From: Promethearchaeota archaeon
Lineage (GTDB): Archaea; Asgardarchaeota; Lokiarchaeia; Sigyniarchaeales; SOKP01
Direction of reading: 5' to 3'
DNA: 64,000 bases
NCBI GenBank assembly: GCA_019058245.1
Contig: JAHPZJ010000028.1
Coordinates: 96,001 to 160,000, forward strand
Below the pieces are notes generated by a model. That model was given only the letters and a program-made list of their open reading frames with translations, made no database searches and was not told the DNA's origin. Each line of letters begins with the position of its first letter. Positions within the stretch are counted from its first letter, which is position 1. This document shows, in pieces, positions 6,684 through 32,417 of this stretch. The position numbers and the translations under genes were made by a program.

Positions 6684-7892
6684 ATGTCTGAAAATAGCAG
6701 TAAGAGTGTAGCTCTTAAAGATTTCTTTAAAAGAAATGTTCTTATTAATCAAATTGAAGAAGTTCTAAGATTTAAACCAGATACGTTAATAGGCGTTGAT
6801 AAAATCAGTTCTGAAAATTTGTCTAATGAAAGTATAAATACTATTGAAGAACTTGCTAATTTATCTGTAGCAAATCTTCCTGAAATAAAAGAAATACTAC
6901 CAAGCATGTTAATGAAATGGGTAAAAATCGCTCAGCTGATACAGAAAACTATAAAGGAACAACTACGGCGTCATAAAAAATTATTAATGATAGGGCTAGA
7001 TAATGGAGGAAAAACTTCTATCCTCGCAGTAGTTCAAGATAAATTCTCGATTATTAAATCTCTTTTACCTACAAGGGGCGTAAAAAGAGAGAAATTAGAT
7101 TTTTTTGGATATCCAATAATAAGTTGGGATTTAGGCGGTCAAGTACAATATAGAGAGAAGCTTTACTTTAATAGACCAGAATTATTTTTCACTGAAGCGG
7201 ATATTATGTTATATGTGGTAGATAGCCAAGATCCTGATAGAATTCCTGAAGCCGCCAATTATTTTCGAGAAGTATTAAAAGTATTACAAGAATTACATGA
7301 ATTACCTTCTGTTATGATTGTTTTAAGCAAAAGTGATCAAGATATACGAAAAGCACTTCAATGGCAACAAAATGTCACAAGCATAAAAAACAAATTTAAC
7401 AGTATTGCTAAGGAATTTGAAGGTTTCTCGGTTGATTATTGTGATACTACTATTTTTCAGAGAGAGACAATAATGCATATGTTCAGTGAGGCGTTAAAGA
7501 AGGTATCTGATACTTCTGAAATAATCGAACATATACTCGAAGAGTTTACACATCAAGTAGAAGCAAAAGCTTCAAGTCTTGTATCAATGGATGGCTTAAT
7601 TTTTGGAAGCTATACTGGATCAGATACAGATGAAATGCTAGTAAATAATACGGCATTATTGCTTCAAACGCTTTCGAACTTCTACAATTCAATTGGCTTA
7701 ATAAGGGAAAAAACGATAAAATTGGAACTACCTCTTAATGGATTTACTATTTGCGGAGAAAAATTATTCGAATATTCCGAATTGCAGATACCTGTATTTT
7801 TGTGGATGCTTTCAGAAAACCCAGAATTATTGGATGGAAGACTTGATTATTTTAGAGAACAATTACTTCCGTTGATTAATCTTTTTCTTTAA
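6684..7892 (+). CDS. Arf/Rag-like small GTPase with N-terminal HhH-like and C-terminal roadblock-like regions
   Basis: GLDNGGKTS, PT, WDLGGQ, SKSD; C-terminal ASSLVSMDGLIFGSY typical of roadblock folds. Confidence 0.8.
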   Translation: MSENSSKSVALKDFFKRNVLINQIEEVLRFKPDTLIGVDKISSENLSNESINTIEELANLSVANLPEIKEILPSMLMKWVKIAQLIQKTIKEQLRRHKKLLMIGLDNGGKTSILAVVQDKFSIIKSLLPTRGVKREKLDFFGYPIISWDLGGQVQYREKLYFNRPELFFTEADIMLYVVDSQDPDRIPEAANYFREVLKVLQELHELPSVMIVLSKSDQDIRKALQWQQNVTSIKNKFNSIAKEFEGFSVDYCDTTIFQRETIMHMFSEALKKVSDTSEIIEHILEEFTHQVEAKASSLVSMDGLIFGSYTGSDTDEMLVNNTALLLQTLSNFYNSIGLIREKTIKLELPLNGFTICGEKLFEYSELQIPVFLWMLSENPELLDGRLDYFREQLLPLINLFL

Positions 7893-8778: not shown

Positions 8779-11190
8779 TTAGGTTCTACAAAGTCTTTTT
8801 AAAAGAGTTGGATCTATTATCTCTTTTGGTTTCCATCCCTTCTCTTTTAGATATGCCATTATCTCATCTTTCATATTAATAGGAATATCCGCTTCCAGAC
8901 GGACAAATTTCTCTAAATCATTAGGAAATTCAACACCCTTATATTTTCTCTCTAAATCGATCCAATGAGATAATTTTATCATTCGTCCTTTAGAATTATC
9001 TGCAGGTCTTAAAGCTAATTTGGCGACTAAACAGATAGCTTGTTCTATACTTTCCGCGGTTGTTAATAGATGTTCAGGTCCAGGTCCCACTAGATGATCG
9101 GCTGTTCCATCTCGAGCATTGAATACTTTCCAAACATCTTCATCATCGGAGCGTCCAATATACATTCTTCTATATTCCGCGGCATGAGGGCCACAAACAG
9201 CTGGTACACCTAAACCATTTGCCATACTTGCAATACTTGCAGCTTTTTGAGACATAGCACCCCATGCAACACCAACTGCTCCAACTCTGTTTAAAACATA
9301 GTCAGCTATTTCTTCAAAATTACCACGTAATGGTCTTCGGGCGAAGATATTAGCAACTTTAATTGCAGCTCCAGTAATATGAGGATTACTTACGCAACTT
9401 CCTACATTTACTAAACCGCCTCTATCAAAATCACCCGGAAATCTATCATATAATGTTTTTCCATCTTCATCCTTTACAAGGCCAATATCCATTGCTCCAC
9501 AGCCTGAAACTACAACTATATAATTTCTTGTTAGAAATTCTTCAGCCATTTTATATAGTTCTTGAATTTCATGAGCATAACTCGCACATCCAATTATTGC
9601 AACAATTCCAGGGATTTCTCCTAAGACAATAGGGGCACCTACATTCCTAATTTCGGTGTCCATAATAGGTCCACGCCCTACTCTACAGTTGAATTTCTCA
9701 TTTCTAATCTGTTCTCTAGCGGCATATTGTAATAAAGTTAAAGGAGATACACCTTTCATACAGTCTCCTTCACATCGTCCACATCCCAAACACTCATCGA
9801 ATGCTCCTGCTAATACTGAGAAATCCCCATCTTTAGCTAATTTTACTCCTTCCACAAGTGGTAAATCATTTGGACAATTTCTTTGACAATTTCCACAGCC
9901 ATTACAATTCATCGCCATATCAATGCAACCTTGTTCATCAGGAACTCCACTTTTTGCTTTTCTAATTGGTTTGACTTTTATTGCAGTTTCAGCTGCTACT
10001 GCACCAGCTTTTATTGGATCTAAAATAAGGACACCGGGTTCCTTTCCACTTACTAAATCATCAACAATTTCATTGATAGGATCAGTGGTTCTATCAGGTA
10101 AACCGCTCATATTCTTTTCATTTGTAGCAATAAATGGAGCTCCAATCAACTGGGCTTGCTCAAATGATCTTAGATTTACACATTGTTCATCAACCATTAC
10201 TACATCTGGAAATCCCGATCGAATCACATGAAGCTGTCTTGACATTGATCCCACAATCTTAGCACCATCATAGTATCTCGTTAAATCATGGGCAGTACAA
10301 CAAATTGCTCCAACATCTACCTTTTCATCTATACCTTTTTCTCTTATATAATCAACTAATTCGACTCCAGGGGCAACGTTATGTCCAATCATCAAAATAA
10401 CTGCCTTACTCGTATCTAATGTTCCCATACCAAGTTCTACAATAGGAACATTAGGATCTCCCATAGGAAATCCGTACGCGGCAATTTGAACAGCATCAGA
10501 AATTTCCATACCTACAGAATCTGCTAATCCTGCTAAAAAGCTTTTTGATTCATAATCTAAATAAGAACTCTCTTGTCCTGTATGTCCCGCCGCTAATAAG
10601 TGTGTTATTGTAAAATGCACCCACTCCATAGCGGTTTCTAAATCTTCTAGGGTTTCAGGTTTCATACCGACAACTAATCTTGTGTGAGGCATCTCAACGG
10701 CTATATTATTCCCAAAATTAATTGGTACATTGCCATACTTTTCTTTTAACCAATGTAATAGATGATCTCCGTGGGCAGAATGGCACGCAGCGCCTATACA
10801 GCAGGCAATCTCTACTATCCGACTCTGTTGTGTCTCCATATTGATCCCGCATGCACCTGTTCGCCCCTTGGAAAGATTACATTTCCCATATGTGCATAAA
10901 CAGCACATATCACATTTGTCGTATATGCACAGATCAATTGTGCATATATATCGGCATGTAAAAAGGTTTGTATCTTTCCATCATTTTGAAAAACCAATTG
11001 CGTAGGGTTGGAATATGGGGCATAGGATTTTACCCTTGAGAAGTCATGCTTCAATCAAGTGAGGTCCCATAGGCTCCCATTCCGTCTCATCTCCGAAAGA
11101 AACTTTACCAGTAGTAAGTTCGAATCCTTTAATCGTTCCGAGAGGACCTTTATATTCATCTATTTTAACTTTAGCTCCTCTTTTTTCCAT
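8779..11190 (-). CDS. cdhA: CO dehydrogenase/acetyl-CoA synthase alpha subunit, three exons: 11190-11061, 11028-10950, 10915-8779 (781 aa spliced)
   Basis: Exon 3 has CCLCTYGKC, HSAH, GHN, CCTAHD, DEQC, two ferredoxin motifs and GSCVSN. Exons 1-2 supply MEKRGAKVKIDEYKGPLGTIKGFELTTGKVSFGDETEWEPMGP-H-PMPHIPTLRNWFFKMMERYKPFYMP-I-CD, matching the conserved CdhA N-terminus (WEPMGPTP...LRxW...RYxPFYxPICDMC). Confidence 0.92.
10916..10949 (-). other. putative BHB-type mRNA intron 2 of cdhA (34 nt)
   Basis: Sense RNA: GCCG-AU^A-UAUAUGCACA auugauc UGUGCAUAUA-CGAC-AA^A-UGU; perfect 10-bp stem; removal gives CCG AUA UGU GAU AUG UGC (PICDMC). Confidence 0.8.
11029..11060 (-). other. putative BHB-type mRNA intron 1 of cdhA (32 nt)
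   Basis: Sense RNA: GACC-UC^A-CUUGA uu GAAG cauga CUUC UCAAG-GGUA-AA^A-UCC; removal gives GGA CCU CAU CCU AUG in frame. Confidence 0.75.
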
Positions 11191-11423
11191 ATATTTTCAC
11201 TCAATTTTATTATTTTAATTTTGATTTCCTTTTTTAATTTTTTATAATTTAAAATAATTTTATTATTATTTGTTATAAATTATCCAATAAAATAAAAGCT
11301 ATTGATTAAGTTTTAAAATCGATATAATAAACTTGTTTATGGATAATTAGTGTGAAATTTCAAACTAAGGTTAAAAATGTCGCTTTTAATTTTAAAAAAA
11401 CAAGGATGAAAAATAAGTTAAAT

Positions 11424-12422
11424 TTAAGAAGAGAGTAAATTAAAAATCTCAGGAATTATATTATCAATATTGAAATTAGTTTTAACAGATGTAAATAAAA
11501 AATTCCACTTTCTGTTTTTTATTTTATTAAAATTGTAGAAATTAAAAAGTTCTTCTTTTAATAGTGTAAGTTGTTCATTATTACCTTTATCTGAATACTT
11601 AACTAAATCAGTTTTATTTCCTATAATAAGTAAGGGTGTTCCATTTAATTCATCCTTGTTCAATACATTCCAAAACTCTTTTCTTGATTCTTCAAACCTT
11701 CTTTGATTAGCTACATCAATCATATAGACGATAATGTTGGAATCTTGAAGTCCTTTTAACCATTTTGATCTAAATGATTTTTGTCCAGGCATATCCCATA
11801 CCGCAAGTAAGCCTTTTTCTTTTACAGGAATATATTCAATGTTGAATTTTCTCGTTGGAACAAAAAAATTATCATTAAATTCACCAGTTTTCAAACGTCT
11901 TACTAAACTGGATTTTCCCACTTCATCAATTCCAAAAAGAAAGATTTTGAAAAATGTTTCAGTCTGATAATAATATTCAATATCAAGAGGTTTCTCGATT
12001 ACTTCGTCACCAAACCTTCTAATATCAATGAACATAGAAATTAGTAAATTTTCAACTTCAATTTCATCATTAAAGGAGTACCCATTATTATCACTCAAAA
12101 TTTCAGTCAGCAATTCCTCTGTTATTTCTTTATAGTCATAAGGATTATCTTCATTGTCAAAAATTAACCCAATTATAATGTTTCCATTAATACAAGAAGA
12201 ATAAATATTCATTTCATTAGTAAATTGAGCAATTGGTTCAGCAATTTTGAATTGATTTATATTCGTTTTTTGGCTGCCTTCTTCCTTTTCATGATTTTTT
12301 ATAATCTCATTTATCAGTAATTTATCATTAATACTGATAATTTCATTTGGGTAACTATAAATATTTAGATCCTCTAAATCCTGAATTTCGTTTCCTTTAA
12401 ATAAAAATATATTAAGTAGCAA
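11424..12422 (-). CDS. Arf-like small GTPase with N-terminal longin-like region
   Basis: GIDEVGKSS, PT, WDMPGQ, GNKTD, TSVK; N-terminal IIIGLIFDNEDNPYDY. Confidence 0.8.
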   Translation of the reverse strand: MLLNIFLFKGNEIQDLEDLNIYSYPNEIISINDKLLINEIIKNHEKEEGSQKTNINQFKIAEPIAQFTNEMNIYSSCINGNIIIGLIFDNEDNPYDYKEITEELLTEILSDNNGYSFNDEIEVENLLISMFIDIRRFGDEVIEKPLDIEYYYQTETFFKIFLFGIDEVGKSSLVRRLKTGEFNDNFFVPTRKFNIEYIPVKEKGLLAVWDMPGQKSFRSKWLKGLQDSNIIVYMIDVANQRRFEESRKEFWNVLNKDELNGTPLLIIGNKTDLVKYSDKGNNEQLTLLKEELFNFYNFNKIKNRKWNFLFTSVKTNFNIDNIIPEIFNLLSS

Positions 12423-28943: not shown

Positions 28944-29828
28944 TTATTTCATTACGATACCTGAAAAATATCCTACACAATATCCTCTAATATTTCCTGT
29001 TTTTTCTGAACTTGTATAGTACTGTAATAATTTACCCTTACTTGCATTTAAATTTTTAGAAATCATTATAAGGGATGCTATAGTTTGAGGTCCACATACA
29101 GTTGTTTTTGATGCAGCTTCAATTGTTTTTTCAGGATTAAGATCGATAAATCCTTCAATTACTTTTTGATCAATCTGTTTAAGTTTCATCAATTGCTCAG
29201 AATCATGGATTTCTTTATGAGTCATGTCAGAAGAAGCAACAATTACTACGTCTTTATCAAATGAGTTAATAGCTTTAGAAATATCACTTGAGATTTGATT
29301 TAAAGTATTAAAAGCCTTTGTAGAAATTATGATTGGTATAAATTTTACATCTTTTTCTAGGGAACAGTATTTAATAAACGGTAACTGTACTTCGATGTTA
29401 TGTTCTCTTCCAAAAGGATAACCTATAAATGCTGATTCATCATTTTTGATAATATCACTATATTCTAATATTTTCTTGGATAATTCTCCATCAATACGGA
29501 TATTTCCTAAAGGTGTTTCCCATTCGCCCTCATCCATTAACGCAACTTTGCCATAACCAATGTGATCTGTACCTAAGACTATTACAGTATCTGGTATTCT
29601 TTCCTTAAACAAATTAAAAAAGGTAAAAGCCGCGCAACATCCAGAATATATGTATCCAGCATGAGGAGAAACGCCCCCAATTATAGTTCTTTGATCTTGG
29701 TTTAGAGTGGTAGGTTCTTCTCCGGGTCCAAACTCTTTATTTAGAAAAGATTCTTTTAATATAGTAATTAGGTCAGGTTTATAACGTGGATAAAAGCTGC
29801 CAGCAACAGCAGCCTTTCTTATAACCAT
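28944..29828 (-). CDS. MEMO1 family (AmmeMemoRadiSam protein B)
   Basis: RKAAVAGSFYP, PHAGYIYSG, EHNIEVQLPF, ASSDMTH, CG. Confidence 0.92.
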   Translation of the reverse strand: MVIRKAAVAGSFYPRYKPDLITILKESFLNKEFGPGEEPTTLNQDQRTIIGGVSPHAGYIYSGCCAAFTFFNLFKERIPDTVIVLGTDHIGYGKVALMDEGEWETPLGNIRIDGELSKKILEYSDIIKNDESAFIGYPFGREHNIEVQLPFIKYCSLEKDVKFIPIIISTKAFNTLNQISSDISKAINSFDKDVVIVASSDMTHKEIHDSEQLMKLKQIDQKVIEGFIDLNPEKTIEAASKTTVCGPQTIASLIMISKNLNASKGKLLQYYTSSEKTGNIRGYCVGYFSGIVMK

Positions 29829-29949
29829 TTTTTTACCACGAGTTTTTTTTGTTTTGATATTTAAAATATGATTCTTAAGAATTATATATTTTCATCTAAT
29901 ACTAGATAAATTGAAAGATTTATTAAATTATTTTTAATATTTTTTAATA

Positions 29950-30543
29950 ATGAACCAAGTAAACAATGAACAAATCTCTCTTGATAATATTGATTTACCA
30001 GATAAAATCCCAGCAAAATTTATCAATTCAAGAGTTATCGTTTTCAATCCTTTATATGCTTCATATTTATATGTTATTAAAGGTTTTTTTGGTTCTCCTT
30101 TAGGTATAAATAAACCGAGATTAGAATATTTTTCAAAACCAAGTGAATTGTCTCTAATAGAAGCGTATTATTTATTGGAACGTGATGACATTTCTATTTA
30201 TGATATAAAAGAGAATAAGGTTTTAGAACCGAAGGAATTCTATGAGATTGCTAATAAAATTCATCATAAATTTGCAGAGAAATATGTTATTTACAAAGAT
30301 CTAAGGGAAAAAGGATATATACCGAGACCTGGTCTAAAATTTGGAGCGGATTTTGTCGTGTATAAAAAGGGACCTGGTATAGAACATTCACTTTTTATGG
30401 TTCATGTATTACCTCATGATTCTGAAATAACTGCTATTGATATGGTTAGAGCTGGTAGATTAGCAACATCAGTGAGAAAAAAATTTGTTATAGCAAACCC
30501 ACTAACTAAATCATATTATTTCTTTGAATGGTTTAAGCCATAA
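29950..30543 (+). CDS. endA: tRNA-splicing (intron) endonuclease, catalytic subunit
   Basis: LSLIEAYYL, YKDLREKGY, GLKFGADFVVY, GPGIEHS, RLATSVRKK (Tyr/His/Lys triad). Confidence 0.93.
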   Translation: MNQVNNEQISLDNIDLPDKIPAKFINSRVIVFNPLYASYLYVIKGFFGSPLGINKPRLEYFSKPSELSLIEAYYLLERDDISIYDIKENKVLEPKEFYEIANKIHHKFAEKYVIYKDLREKGYIPRPGLKFGADFVVYKKGPGIEHSLFMVHVLPHDSEITAIDMVRAGRLATSVRKKFVIANPLTKSYYFFEWFKP

Positions 30544-30599
30544 AATAAAGAAAAAGTACAGATAAAAAAAATTGATATATTAATTTTCCACTTTATAGA

Positions 30600-32417
30600 T
30601 TATTTCACAAAAACCAATTTTAGAATATCGCTAAGATTTTTATTTTTAAATTGTTCTATTTGGTCAAAATCTGCATTTGGAATGGAATGGGTAATTTTCA
30701 TAATACTATTCAAGACCTCGTCTTCCTTATTCTCATCAAATCTAAGCCCTCTTTTTAACAGAATTTTTCCCTCTTTAAAAAATAATAAAATTATTTTTAT
30801 TAATCCTAATAATTTCTTATGTTCAGTAAAATTGTCAATCTCTACAAATGCATTTTGACCTAAAAAACTATTTTGAATTAATTTTGCCATAAAAAGATCA
30901 AGTTTTTGATCATCAGGCAAATTTTTCTTTCCAATTAACTGTGTTATAAATTTTAACTCATGATCTTTTGATAGTATTTCATCTACTTGTTTTTGACACC
31001 CTATCCAATCTAGATCAATTTCTGACCAATAAATATCGTTATTTCTCCACCATTCTGAAATTTGTACGGGATAATTTGAATAAGATTTCATCCAATTTAT
31101 AGCAGGATATTGTTTTAAGTATGCTAAATTATTATCTAGAGCTAATAATGATTGCACAACTCGTTTAGTAACTGTAGTAACTGGCTCATTAAAATCTCCT
31201 GCAGGAGGTGATATTGATCCTATAATTGTCAAAGACCCAATATTTTGTTTTCCTAAATGATCTCGTCCATTTGTTTGAAAAACACCGGCTCTTTCATAAA
31301 AACTTGAGAGTCTTGTTGGTAAATATGCAGGATATCCTTCTTCGGCTGGCATTTCTTCCAATAATCCACAAATTTCTCTTAAGGATTCTGCCCATCTTGA
31401 TGTACTATCTGCAAGAACGGCAACATCATATCCCATATCTCTATAGTACTCCGCGATAGTTACTCCTGAAAAAAGACTAGCATCACGAGCAGATACAGGC
31501 ATATTTGAAGTATTTGCAATAATAATTGTGCGATCTAATAATGGTCTCCCATTTTTAGCATCATAAATCTCTTTAAATTGTTTTAACACATTAGCAATTT
31601 CATTACCTGGTTCTCCACAACCTATAAAAATAATTATATCTGCCTTACAATACTTTGCAATTGTTTGTAAAATAACTGTTTTCCCTGTTCCAAATCCTCC
31701 TGGAACTGCAGATGTCCCTCCTTTTGCTATTGGAAATAGTAAATCAATTATTCTTGTTCCTGTCAATAATGGTTCATTTGGTTTAATTTTCCTTTCAAAG
31801 GGTCTCCTTTTAGTAATTGGCCACTTTTGTAACATCGAGAATGAGGTTTCTTGTCCATTTTCTGTTAAACAATAAATTGTATCTATTATATTATAATCTC
31901 CCTCTTCTGCAATAAAAGTTATTTTCCCAAACACCGCAGGTGGAATCATAATTTTATGGGTAATTATTTCAGTTTCTTGTACTGTTCCAATAAAGTCTCC
32001 GCTATTTACATTATCACCTTTTTTTCGTAAGGGTACAAAATGCCATTTTTTTTCTCTTGATAAGGGTGAAAAATCGATTCCTTTTTCTAATTTTCCTTCT
32101 TTAAAATGTTCAAAAATTGTTTCTAAAGGCCTTTGAATTCCATCAAAGACATTTGCCATCAATCCAGGGCCTAACTCCATGGATAATGGTTTTTTAAGAT
32201 TAATAACTTTTTCATATAACTTTAAACTATTTGTATCATCATAAGATTGGGCTACAATGTAATTAGAATAAATTTGAATAACTTCACTTAAAATATTATG
32301 GTTAGAAATTTTGACTAAGTCATGAAGTCTTATTTCATTTTCCAATCCTTTTACTTTAATTATTGAACCTTTAATTGATGTAATTACACCATATTTATGA
32401 AGTTCTTCGACTGACAT
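30600..32417 (-). CDS. A/V-type ATPase subunit A, second divergent paralog
   Basis: [33 protein letters not shown]; GCGEPGNE instead of GCGERGNE. Confidence 0.9.
   Translation of the reverse strand: MSVEELHKYGVITSIKGSIIKVKGLENEIRLHDLVKISNHNILSEVIQIYSNYIVAQSYDDTNSLKLYEKVINLKKPLSMELGPGLMANVFDGIQRPLETIFEHFKEGKLEKGIDFSPLSREKKWHFVPLRKKGDNVNSGDFIGTVQETEIITHKIMIPPAVFGKITFIAEEGDYNIIDTIYCLTENGQETSFSMLQKWPITKRRPFERKIKPNEPLLTGTRIIDLLFPIAKGGTSAVPGGFGTGKTVILQTIAKYCKADIIIFIGCGEPGNEIANVLKQFKEIYDAKNGRPLLDRTIIIANTSNMPVSARDASLFSGVTIAEYYRDMGYDVAVLADSTSRWAESLREICGLLEEMPAEEGYPAYLPTRLSSFYERAGVFQTNGRDHLGKQNIGSLTIIGSISPPAGDFNEPVTTVTKRVVQSLLALDNNLAYLKQYPAINWMKSYSNYPVQISEWWRNNDIYWSEIDLDWIGCQKQVDEILSKDHELKFITQLIGKKNLPDDQKLDLFMAKLIQNSFLGQNAFVEIDNFTEHKKLLGLIKIILLFFKEGKILLKRGLRFDENKEDEVLNSIMKITHSIPNADFDQIEQFKNKNLSDILKLVFVK

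What the first reader, a model, noticed from the sequence alone, without database searches (positions are those of the whole stretch)
8779..11190. cdhA appears to be a spliced gene: two tRNA-type (BHB) introns in the mRNA of a Wood-Ljungdahl enzyme in an Asgard archaeon
Seen in sequence: the called ORF starts inside the Fe-S motif (MCCLC) and lacks the first Cys of CDMCC. The missing N-terminus lies upstream in two pieces separated by 32-nt and 34-nt hairpin inserts. Exon 1 (130 nt) + exon 2 (79 nt) + exon 3 give a clean 781-aa CdhA with no other lesion. Both inserts share the layout 4-nt helix / 3-nt bulge / stem-loop / 4-nt helix / AAA. Established knowledge: archaeal EndA cuts BHB motifs after the second nucleotide of each bulge, and mRNA introns in archaea are known mainly from crenarchaeal cbf5. 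Applying that cut rule restores the frame at both sites independently, which is unlikely for random insertions. Inference: this is EndA/RtcB-dependent mRNA splicing of a central carbon-metabolism gene in the archaeal lineage closest to eukaryotes, reminiscent of non-spliceosomal HAC1/XBP1 splicing.
Basis: partly seen in the sequence, partly recalled or inferred. Interest (0 to 1): 0.97.

Follow-up and report, generated by a model that had tools for sequence, protein, structure and literature searches.

The report
Two tRNA-type introns in Asgard cdhA
The CO dehydrogenase gene of an Asgard archaeon is broken by two ~30-base inserts shaped like the introns that archaea cut out of tRNAs; comparison with relatives indicates they are spliced out of the mRNA and move between strains, whereas the papers I could search document such a coding intron for only one archaeal gene (cbf5).

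Summary
Observation confirmed. Removing the 32-nt (11029-11060) and 34-nt (10916-10949) inserts gives a 781-aa CdhA, and intron-free relatives confirm both junctions. The host is a Lokiarchaeia (Promethearchaeota) archaeon. Across its family I found 29 distinct 29-34-nt inserts at 7 cdhA sites, in 18 of 121 genomes with a match plus metagenome contigs. All fit the EndA cut register; stems covary; G-U pairs favour the sense strand; carriers stay under purifying selection. This genome also has such inserts in ahcY, uppS, cobO, mevalonate kinase and a response regulator, and encodes a two-subunit EndA with the broad-specificity loop, plus RtcB. New here: carriers are not monophyletic, and the introns travel with short tracts of flanking exon, so they spread by recombination. 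Corrections: both central helices pair only 3 of 4 (relaxed motifs), and a HAC1/XBP1-like regulatory role is unsupported. Splicing itself was not observed, because no RNA run was listed. Best reading: EndA/RtcB-spliced mRNA introns (0.88). The scan noted this class before on other DNA, including one cdhA intron (unchecked AI notes).

The parts
11061..11190 (-). cdhA exon 1 (130 nt, ends in the GP codons plus 1 nt)
11029..11060 (-). intron 1, 32 nt, relaxed BHB (central helix 3 of 4, inner stem 5+4 bp, UGA inside); site shared with unrelated copies that carry 29-31-nt introns
10950..11028 (-). cdhA exon 2 (79 nt)
10916..10949 (-). intron 2, 34 nt, HBh'-type (10-bp inner stem, central helix 3 of 4), just before the CDMCC Fe-S motif; homologous copies in 7 other distinct sequences
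8779..10915 (-). cdhA exon 3; intact, dN/dS 0.02 against the nearest intron-free copy
29950..30543 (+). EndA catalytic (alpha) subunit with the crenarchaeal-type L1/CSL loop and Tyr, His, Lys residues; the likely trans-acting nuclease (inferred)

Best explanation
The two inserts are bulge-helix-bulge mRNA introns. The cdhA transcript folds locally so that the last 6 nt of the upstream exon pair with the end of the insert. The cell's (alpha-beta)2 tRNA-splicing endonuclease cuts after the second base of each bulge, and RtcB joins the exons, giving the 781-aa CODH alpha subunit. The introns are tolerated, non-coding passengers that sit in conserved motifs and spread or are lost between strains by homologous recombination with short co-converted exon tracts. 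Shown: positions, frame restoration, structure conservation, selection on the protein, presence of the enzymes, patchy and mosaic distribution. Inferred: cleavage by EndA, ligation by RtcB, and the route of spread. How a new intron first arises is not known.
For: (1) Alignment-defined boundaries match the EndA register in all 22 distinct inserts tested: rank 1 of 121 in 16 (one tied), rank 2 in 5, rank 3 in 1. (2) Site at CDS nt 228, 5 sequences: 95% of cells paired, 7 pairs with two-sided change, slid controls 33-60% paired. (3) Over 29 inserts, G-U outnumbers A-C 26:4 in the central helix and 16:3 in the inner stem, which points to structure in the sense RNA; 24 of 29 end in AA. (4) All four in-frame inserts tested contain a stop, yet dN/dS is 0.02-0.07 against intron-free copies and 0.03-0.13 between carriers of the same intron. 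(5) The same genome has such inserts in its only detected ahcY and uppS, and in cobO, mevalonate kinase and a response regulator; five relatives carry the uppS insert with stop codons. (6) EndA alpha best matches crenarchaeal enzymes and has the L1 loop; a paralogue lacking the catalytic His and RtcB are present; Asgard EndA is described as (alpha-beta)2 with L1 in PMC5829648. (7) Spread: monophyly of carriers is rejected for three sites (p-AU 5e-80, 3e-56, 7e-36); exons 1-2 have dS 1.9 but exon 3 dS 0.40 to the nearest intron-free gene; 30 exon nt round intron 2 are identical to a copy that is otherwise 60-92% alike by window; 96%-identical haplotypes differ in intron set, with flanking SNP tracts.
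Against: No spliced transcript, junction peptide or cleavage assay was seen here. Both local motifs have a mismatch in the central helix, and intron 2 lacks the in-register exon helix, so cleavage efficiency is uncertain. The rank test is partly circular: the register was picked by score within a few nt of the aligned gap, though the length is fixed by alignment. Covariation rests on 5 related sequences. No long, endonuclease-bearing parent intron turned up in one pattern scan.
Confidence: 0.88

Rival explanations
1. The inserts are removed at DNA level, by precise excision of a tiny hairpin element (IS200/IS605- or REP-like) in part of the population, so the mRNA is not spliced.
For: Hairpins without target-site duplication, patchy presence and clean empty sites.
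Against: G-U is favoured over A-C on the sense strand. The end of the insert pairs with exon bases in EndA geometry and keeps pairing where the exon differs. The inserts share no conserved target or terminal sequence across the 7 sites. Single-copy housekeeping genes carry them.
Confidence: 0.04
2. cdhA is a pseudogene, killed by palindromic insertions.
For: Either insert truncates the protein (48 or 74 aa). Most relatives lack them. The pathway may be incomplete here.
Against: No other lesion; dN/dS 0.03-0.13 between carriers that share an intron; up to three inserts in one otherwise intact gene; compensatory stem changes; same class in ahcY and uppS.
Confidence: 0.03
3. Ribosomes bypass or frameshift over the hairpins (T4 gene 60-like recoding) without RNA cleavage.
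For: A hairpin plus a stop next to the break resembles recoding signals (own knowledge).
Against: Both junctions fall inside a codon, and no matching take-off and landing codons exist; the codon before the resumed frame at insert 1 is a stop. Inserts of all three length classes mod 3 restore the exact consensus only by deletion.
Confidence: 0.03
4. Assembly artefact.
Against: Near-identical copies of insert 2 occur in independent assemblies; related inserts at site 1 recur across JGI, ENA and Logan samples; a separate Logan contig begins with the last two intron bases (weak).
Confidence: 0.02

Closest known systems
cbf5 pre-mRNA intron of Sulfolobales and Desulfurococcales (Watanabe 2002, Yoshinari 2006 as cited in PMC2738675)
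   Same: Short (16-44 nt there, 29-34 here) intron in a coding region, relaxed BHB, cut by a hetero-oligomeric EndA, placed in a conserved catalytic motif, lost in some lineages.
   Different: cbf5 has one site, inherited from a common ancestor, with cDNA proof. Here there are 7 sites in one gene, up to 3 introns per copy, several other genes in the same genome, a patchy distribution with signs of lateral spread, a different phylum, and no RNA proof.
HVO_1309 5'-UTR BHB intron of Haloferax volcanii (PMC7714728, PMC10485636)
   Same: mRNA cut by EndA at a BHB and rejoined.
   Different: It lies outside the reading frame and uses an alpha2 enzyme; here splicing is required to restore the frame.
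Non-canonical tRNA introns of Asgard archaea and Thermoproteales (preprint 10.64898/2026.10.13.758758)
   Same: BHB geometry, repeated independent gains, unknown route of arrival; this genome's tRNAs carry inserts of similar size.
   Different: Host RNA is tRNA. In that preprint 'mRNA' and 'cbf5' do not occur in the main text, and its focal families are not Lokiarchaeia.
Archaeal rRNA BHB introns with homing endonucleases and their deletion derivatives (PMC2738675)
   Same: EndA-spliced, mobile, strain-variable.
   Different: No ORF-bearing form was found here in one pattern scan; the host is an mRNA.
HAC1/XBP1 non-spliceosomal splicing (PMC13149111; own knowledge)
   Same: Protein nuclease plus tRNA ligase remove a short frame-shifting intron from an mRNA.
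   Different: The nuclease is IRE1, not EndA; the signal is two stem-loops, not a BHB; that splicing is regulated and conserved, while no regulation or conserved site is shown here.

Membership tests
EndA-spliced BHB intron | 4-bp central helix between the exon end and the intron end | tested here: met
   3 of 4 pairs in both window inserts; 4 of 4 in homologues at the same sites (L019, L025); 102 of 116 positions paired over 29 inserts. Relaxed form.
EndA-spliced BHB intron | Cuts after the second nucleotide of each 3-nt bulge give the true junction | tested here: met
   Alignment-defined boundaries rank 1-3 of 121 registers in 22 of 22 inserts; partly circular within a few nt.
EndA-spliced BHB intron | Intron-internal helix h' | tested here: met
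   5 bp and 10 bp in register; compensatory changes in homologues.
EndA-spliced BHB intron (strict hBHBh') | Exon-exon helix h in register | tested here: inconclusive
   Insert 1: 3 of 4 pairs; insert 2: 0 of 4 (HBh' relaxed form); other sites 4 of 4.
EndA-spliced BHB intron | Host encodes an EndA able to cut relaxed motifs, and a ligase | tested here: met
   Alpha subunit with L1/CSL loop, second paralogue without catalytic His, RtcB. Activity not assayed.
EndA-spliced BHB intron | Spliced RNA exists in the cell | not testable with these tools
EndA-spliced BHB intron | Cleavage by EndA in vitro | not testable with these tools
   Needs a bench assay.
Group I / group II intron or other Rfam family | Catalytic RNA core of hundreds of nt; Rfam match | tested here: not met
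   Inserts are 32 and 34 nt; no Rfam match at E up to 1.
MITE / IS footprint | Target-site duplication and repeated copies in the genome | tested here: not met
   At most 2 nt of boundary redundancy; no second copy with up to 9 mismatches in the genome.
Homing-endonuclease intron | Intron-encoded nuclease ORF | tested here: not met
   Too short; no long variant among the 4 cdhA hits of one metagenome pattern scan. This does not exclude a parent elsewhere.
Archaeal CdhA (ACDS alpha subunit) | Full-length similarity to solved CdhA including the N-terminal region and Cys motif | tested here: met
   The intron-free 98%-identical orthologue matches 8RIU_A at E 2.7e-268 over residues 27-765, across both junctions.

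The most novel reading that the evidence does not exclude
In this Lokiarchaeia family, EndA/RtcB splicing is a routine step of mRNA maturation for many unrelated and essential genes, with several introns per gene, and the ORF-less micro-introns are an actively spreading class that invades conserved motifs and moves laterally between strains.
Probability: 0.7. Interest if true: 0.9.

Novelty: new variant of a known kind. Interest (0 to 1): 0.8.

Why it matters
Reviews up to 2023 list two EndA-spliced archaeal mRNAs, cbf5 and a Haloferax 5' UTR (PMC10485636). Multi-intron coding genes in an Asgard lineage would show that the archaeal relatives of eukaryotes already run general, spliceosome-free mRNA splicing. 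Strain pairs with and without a given intron make intron gain, loss and lateral spread directly testable. In practice, many Asgard genes now annotated as fragments or pseudogenes (46-86-aa exon-1 peptides fill public clusters) would be intact, which changes metabolic reconstructions. It says nothing yet about the origin of spliceosomal introns.

Tried and rejected
(1) RNA evidence: no RNA holder was listed for 8779-11400, so read laying could not be used; this blank is no evidence either way. Full-length cluster members that looked like spliced products (P0063, P0064) turned out to be intron-free copies only 83% identical to the carriers. (2) Three motif-only genome scans for further introns showed no enrichment over decoy registers in this 29%-GC genome; one top candidate (C15:110444) lay in an intact ORF. 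No genome-wide count can be given; only homology or conserved protein motifs identified real cases. (3) One search used a structure string that was off by one column; one search is the corrected count. (4) Automatic register picking chose wrong shifts for L137 and L267; corrected by hand. (5) L120 (G022) is a gapped, apparently chimeric scaffold; only its site-209 insert was counted. (6) A homology census of about 1.3 Mb round cdhA in relatives found no other clear BHB insert. (7) Thiolase and AMP-binding families of this genome showed no stops inside matches. (8) Outside the family, the listed cdhA 5' ends of other Asgard genomes were uninterrupted (19 matches were not listed). (9) Seven literature searches found no paper on Asgard mRNA introns; the library lacks most subscription papers.

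Full report
Observation. The gene lies on the minus strand from ATG 11190 to the stop at 8779. Removing 11029-11060 (32 nt) and 10916-10949 (34 nt) gives 781 codons with no internal stop; the ORF finder starts only at MCCLC. Unspliced RNA encodes 48 aa, and with only insert 1 removed 74 aa. Thirty orthologues from the same genus, most of them intact, place both inserts at these positions. The intact 98%-identical orthologue matches solved CdhA across both junctions. The relatives are Promethearchaeota (Lokiarchaeia) MAGs such as Loki_b32. This is the only cdhA found in a 76%-complete genome; cdhC is intact, and CdhD/E gave only partial hits.

Anatomy. In EndA geometry the upstream exon ends with the 4-nt central helix strand plus 2 bulge bases, and the intron ends with the partner strand plus 2 bulge bases. 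Insert 1 has helix GACC/GGUA (3 pairs), a 5-bp inner stem and 3 of 4 outer pairs. Insert 2 has GCCG/CGAC (3 pairs), a 10-bp inner stem and no outer helix in register. Homologous inserts at the same two sites have perfect central helices (L019, L025).

The family. A search of 135 genomes of the family found 121 with cdhA, and 18 of them, in six genera, carry inserts; only genomes broken within the searched 98 aa, or already fetched whole, were examined, so this is a lower bound. With metagenome contigs there are 29 distinct inserts of 29-34 nt at seven sites (CDS nt 130, 208, 209, 216, 228, 343, 510), up to three per gene. In the 22 tested, the true boundary pair ranks first of 121 registers in 16, second in 5 and third in 1. 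The register was chosen by score within a few nt of the aligned gap, so this test is partly circular; the length is not. At nt 228 five sequences keep 95% of pairs, with 7 pairs changed on both sides, against 33-60% for slid controls (few, related sequences). G-U pairs outnumber A-C 26 to 4 and 16 to 3, as expected for a fold of the sense RNA. The four in-frame inserts tested hold stop codons. The listed cdhA 5' ends of other Asgard families were uninterrupted.

Selection. dN/dS is 0.02-0.07 between carriers and their nearest intron-free copy and 0.03-0.13 between carriers of the same intron. No other lesion is present. The genes are in use, so the inserts must be removed.

Other genes in this genome. 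Leads from earlier scan notes were checked. Homology to intact orthologues confirms BHB-shaped inserts in ahcY (C10, 32 nt), uppS (C29, 30 nt, inside the DGNRRW motif; five relatives carry it with stops) and a response regulator (C23, 31 nt). Restoration of a conserved protein motif supports mevalonate kinase (C15, 31 nt) and cobO (C22, 30 nt). ahcY and uppS are the only copies found. Motif-only scans could not count such introns.

Machinery. The EndA at 29950-30543 best matches crenarchaeal alpha subunits and has the L1/CSL loop and the catalytic Tyr, His and Lys. A paralogue on C20 lacks the His, as a structural subunit would. RtcB is on C25. PMC5829648 reports Asgard EndA as (alpha-beta)2 with L1 and links such loops to relaxed motifs. 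The genome's tRNA genes appear to carry non-canonical inserts of about 30 nt (read by eye).

Spread. Carriers of the introns at nt 130, 209 and 228 are scattered over the cdhA tree, and monophyly is rejected for each (partial sequences left out). This alone could also reflect many losses. The mosaic pattern favours transfer: this gene is 92% identical to its intron-free sister in exon 3 (dS 0.40) but has dS 1.9 in exons 1-2, the switch falls at intron 2, and 30 exon nt round intron 2 are identical to a distant carrier. Two 96%-identical haplotypes share intron 130 but differ at 209, 228 and 343, and flanking SNP tracts go with the introns. No target-site duplication, second genomic copy or endonuclease-bearing form was found. 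Recombination between cdhA copies explains spread at a given site; the origin of new sites stays open.

Rivals. Artefact, pseudogene, translational bypass and DNA-level excision are each contradicted as set out above; together I give them about 0.12. The missing piece is RNA: no run was listed. An earlier AI note (e1-5425751) reports another cdhA intron absent from RNA assemblies; I could not check it and do not count it as support.

Comparison and novelty. It works like the cbf5 intron (PMC2738675) and meets every sequence-level feature of a relaxed BHB intron; the two biochemical features could not be tested. Published EndA-spliced mRNAs are cbf5 and HVO_1309 (PMC7714728, PMC10485636), and PMC2738675 mentions unconfirmed predictions for other genes. 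A 2026 preprint covers Asgard tRNA introns only. What differs is the scale and behaviour: many sites, many genes, several introns per gene, strain-level variation with lateral movement. I rate it a new variant of a known kind, interest 0.8. The HAC1/XBP1 likeness holds for chemistry only. The scan has noted this class in other genomes before.

Noticed in passing
G000 C10:121094 (-), C29:64620 (-), C23:13253 (+), C15:8315 (+), C22:46679 (+): BHB-shaped 30-32-nt inserts in ahcY, uppS, a response regulator, mevalonate kinase and cobO of the same genome; the uppS insert is in frame and stop-free here, so it is invisible to ORF calling.
   Followed up: yes
window 10950-11190: The 5' 210 coding nt of cdhA come from a more distant donor than exon 3 (dS 1.9 against 0.40 to the nearest intron-free copy).
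   Followed up: yes
L066:6177: A 35-nt palindromic insert breaks a conserved gene near cdhA but does not fit the canonical cut register; unexplained.
   Followed up: partly
G000 tRNA genes (C3, C9, C10, C19, C25, C27-C30): Many tRNA genes are about 30 nt too long and appear to hold non-canonical introns; ARAGORN miscalls several anticodons.
   Followed up: no
P0011-P0071: Public protein clusters hold many 46-115-aa CdhA fragments that end at the intron sites with different read-through tails (one cluster has 65 members), so more intron variants exist than I aligned.
   Followed up: partly
L044, L045, L051 and others: Records titled Hodarchaeota, Thorarchaeota, Hermodarchaeota or Odinarchaeota hold CdhA 85-90% identical to this one; the labels look wrong or the gene was transferred.
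   Followed up: no
window 6684-7892 and 11424-12422: cdhA stands alone, flanked by Rag/Arf-like small GTPase genes, far from cdhC (C30); CdhD/E gave only partial hits.
   Followed up: partly
window 28944-32417: endA sits between a Memo-family gene and the end of the A-type ATPase operon.
   Followed up: no
L108; G082:C66: Tandem duplicated cdhA genes in some relatives, a possible substrate for gene conversion.
   Followed up: no
L275:1399-3743: A cdhA copy split by a 1-nt deletion at CDS nt 863, with no insert; error or true frameshift.
   Followed up: no
L120 (G022:C22): Gapped scaffold with foreign-looking sequence inside cdhA; probably a chimeric assembly.
   Followed up: partly
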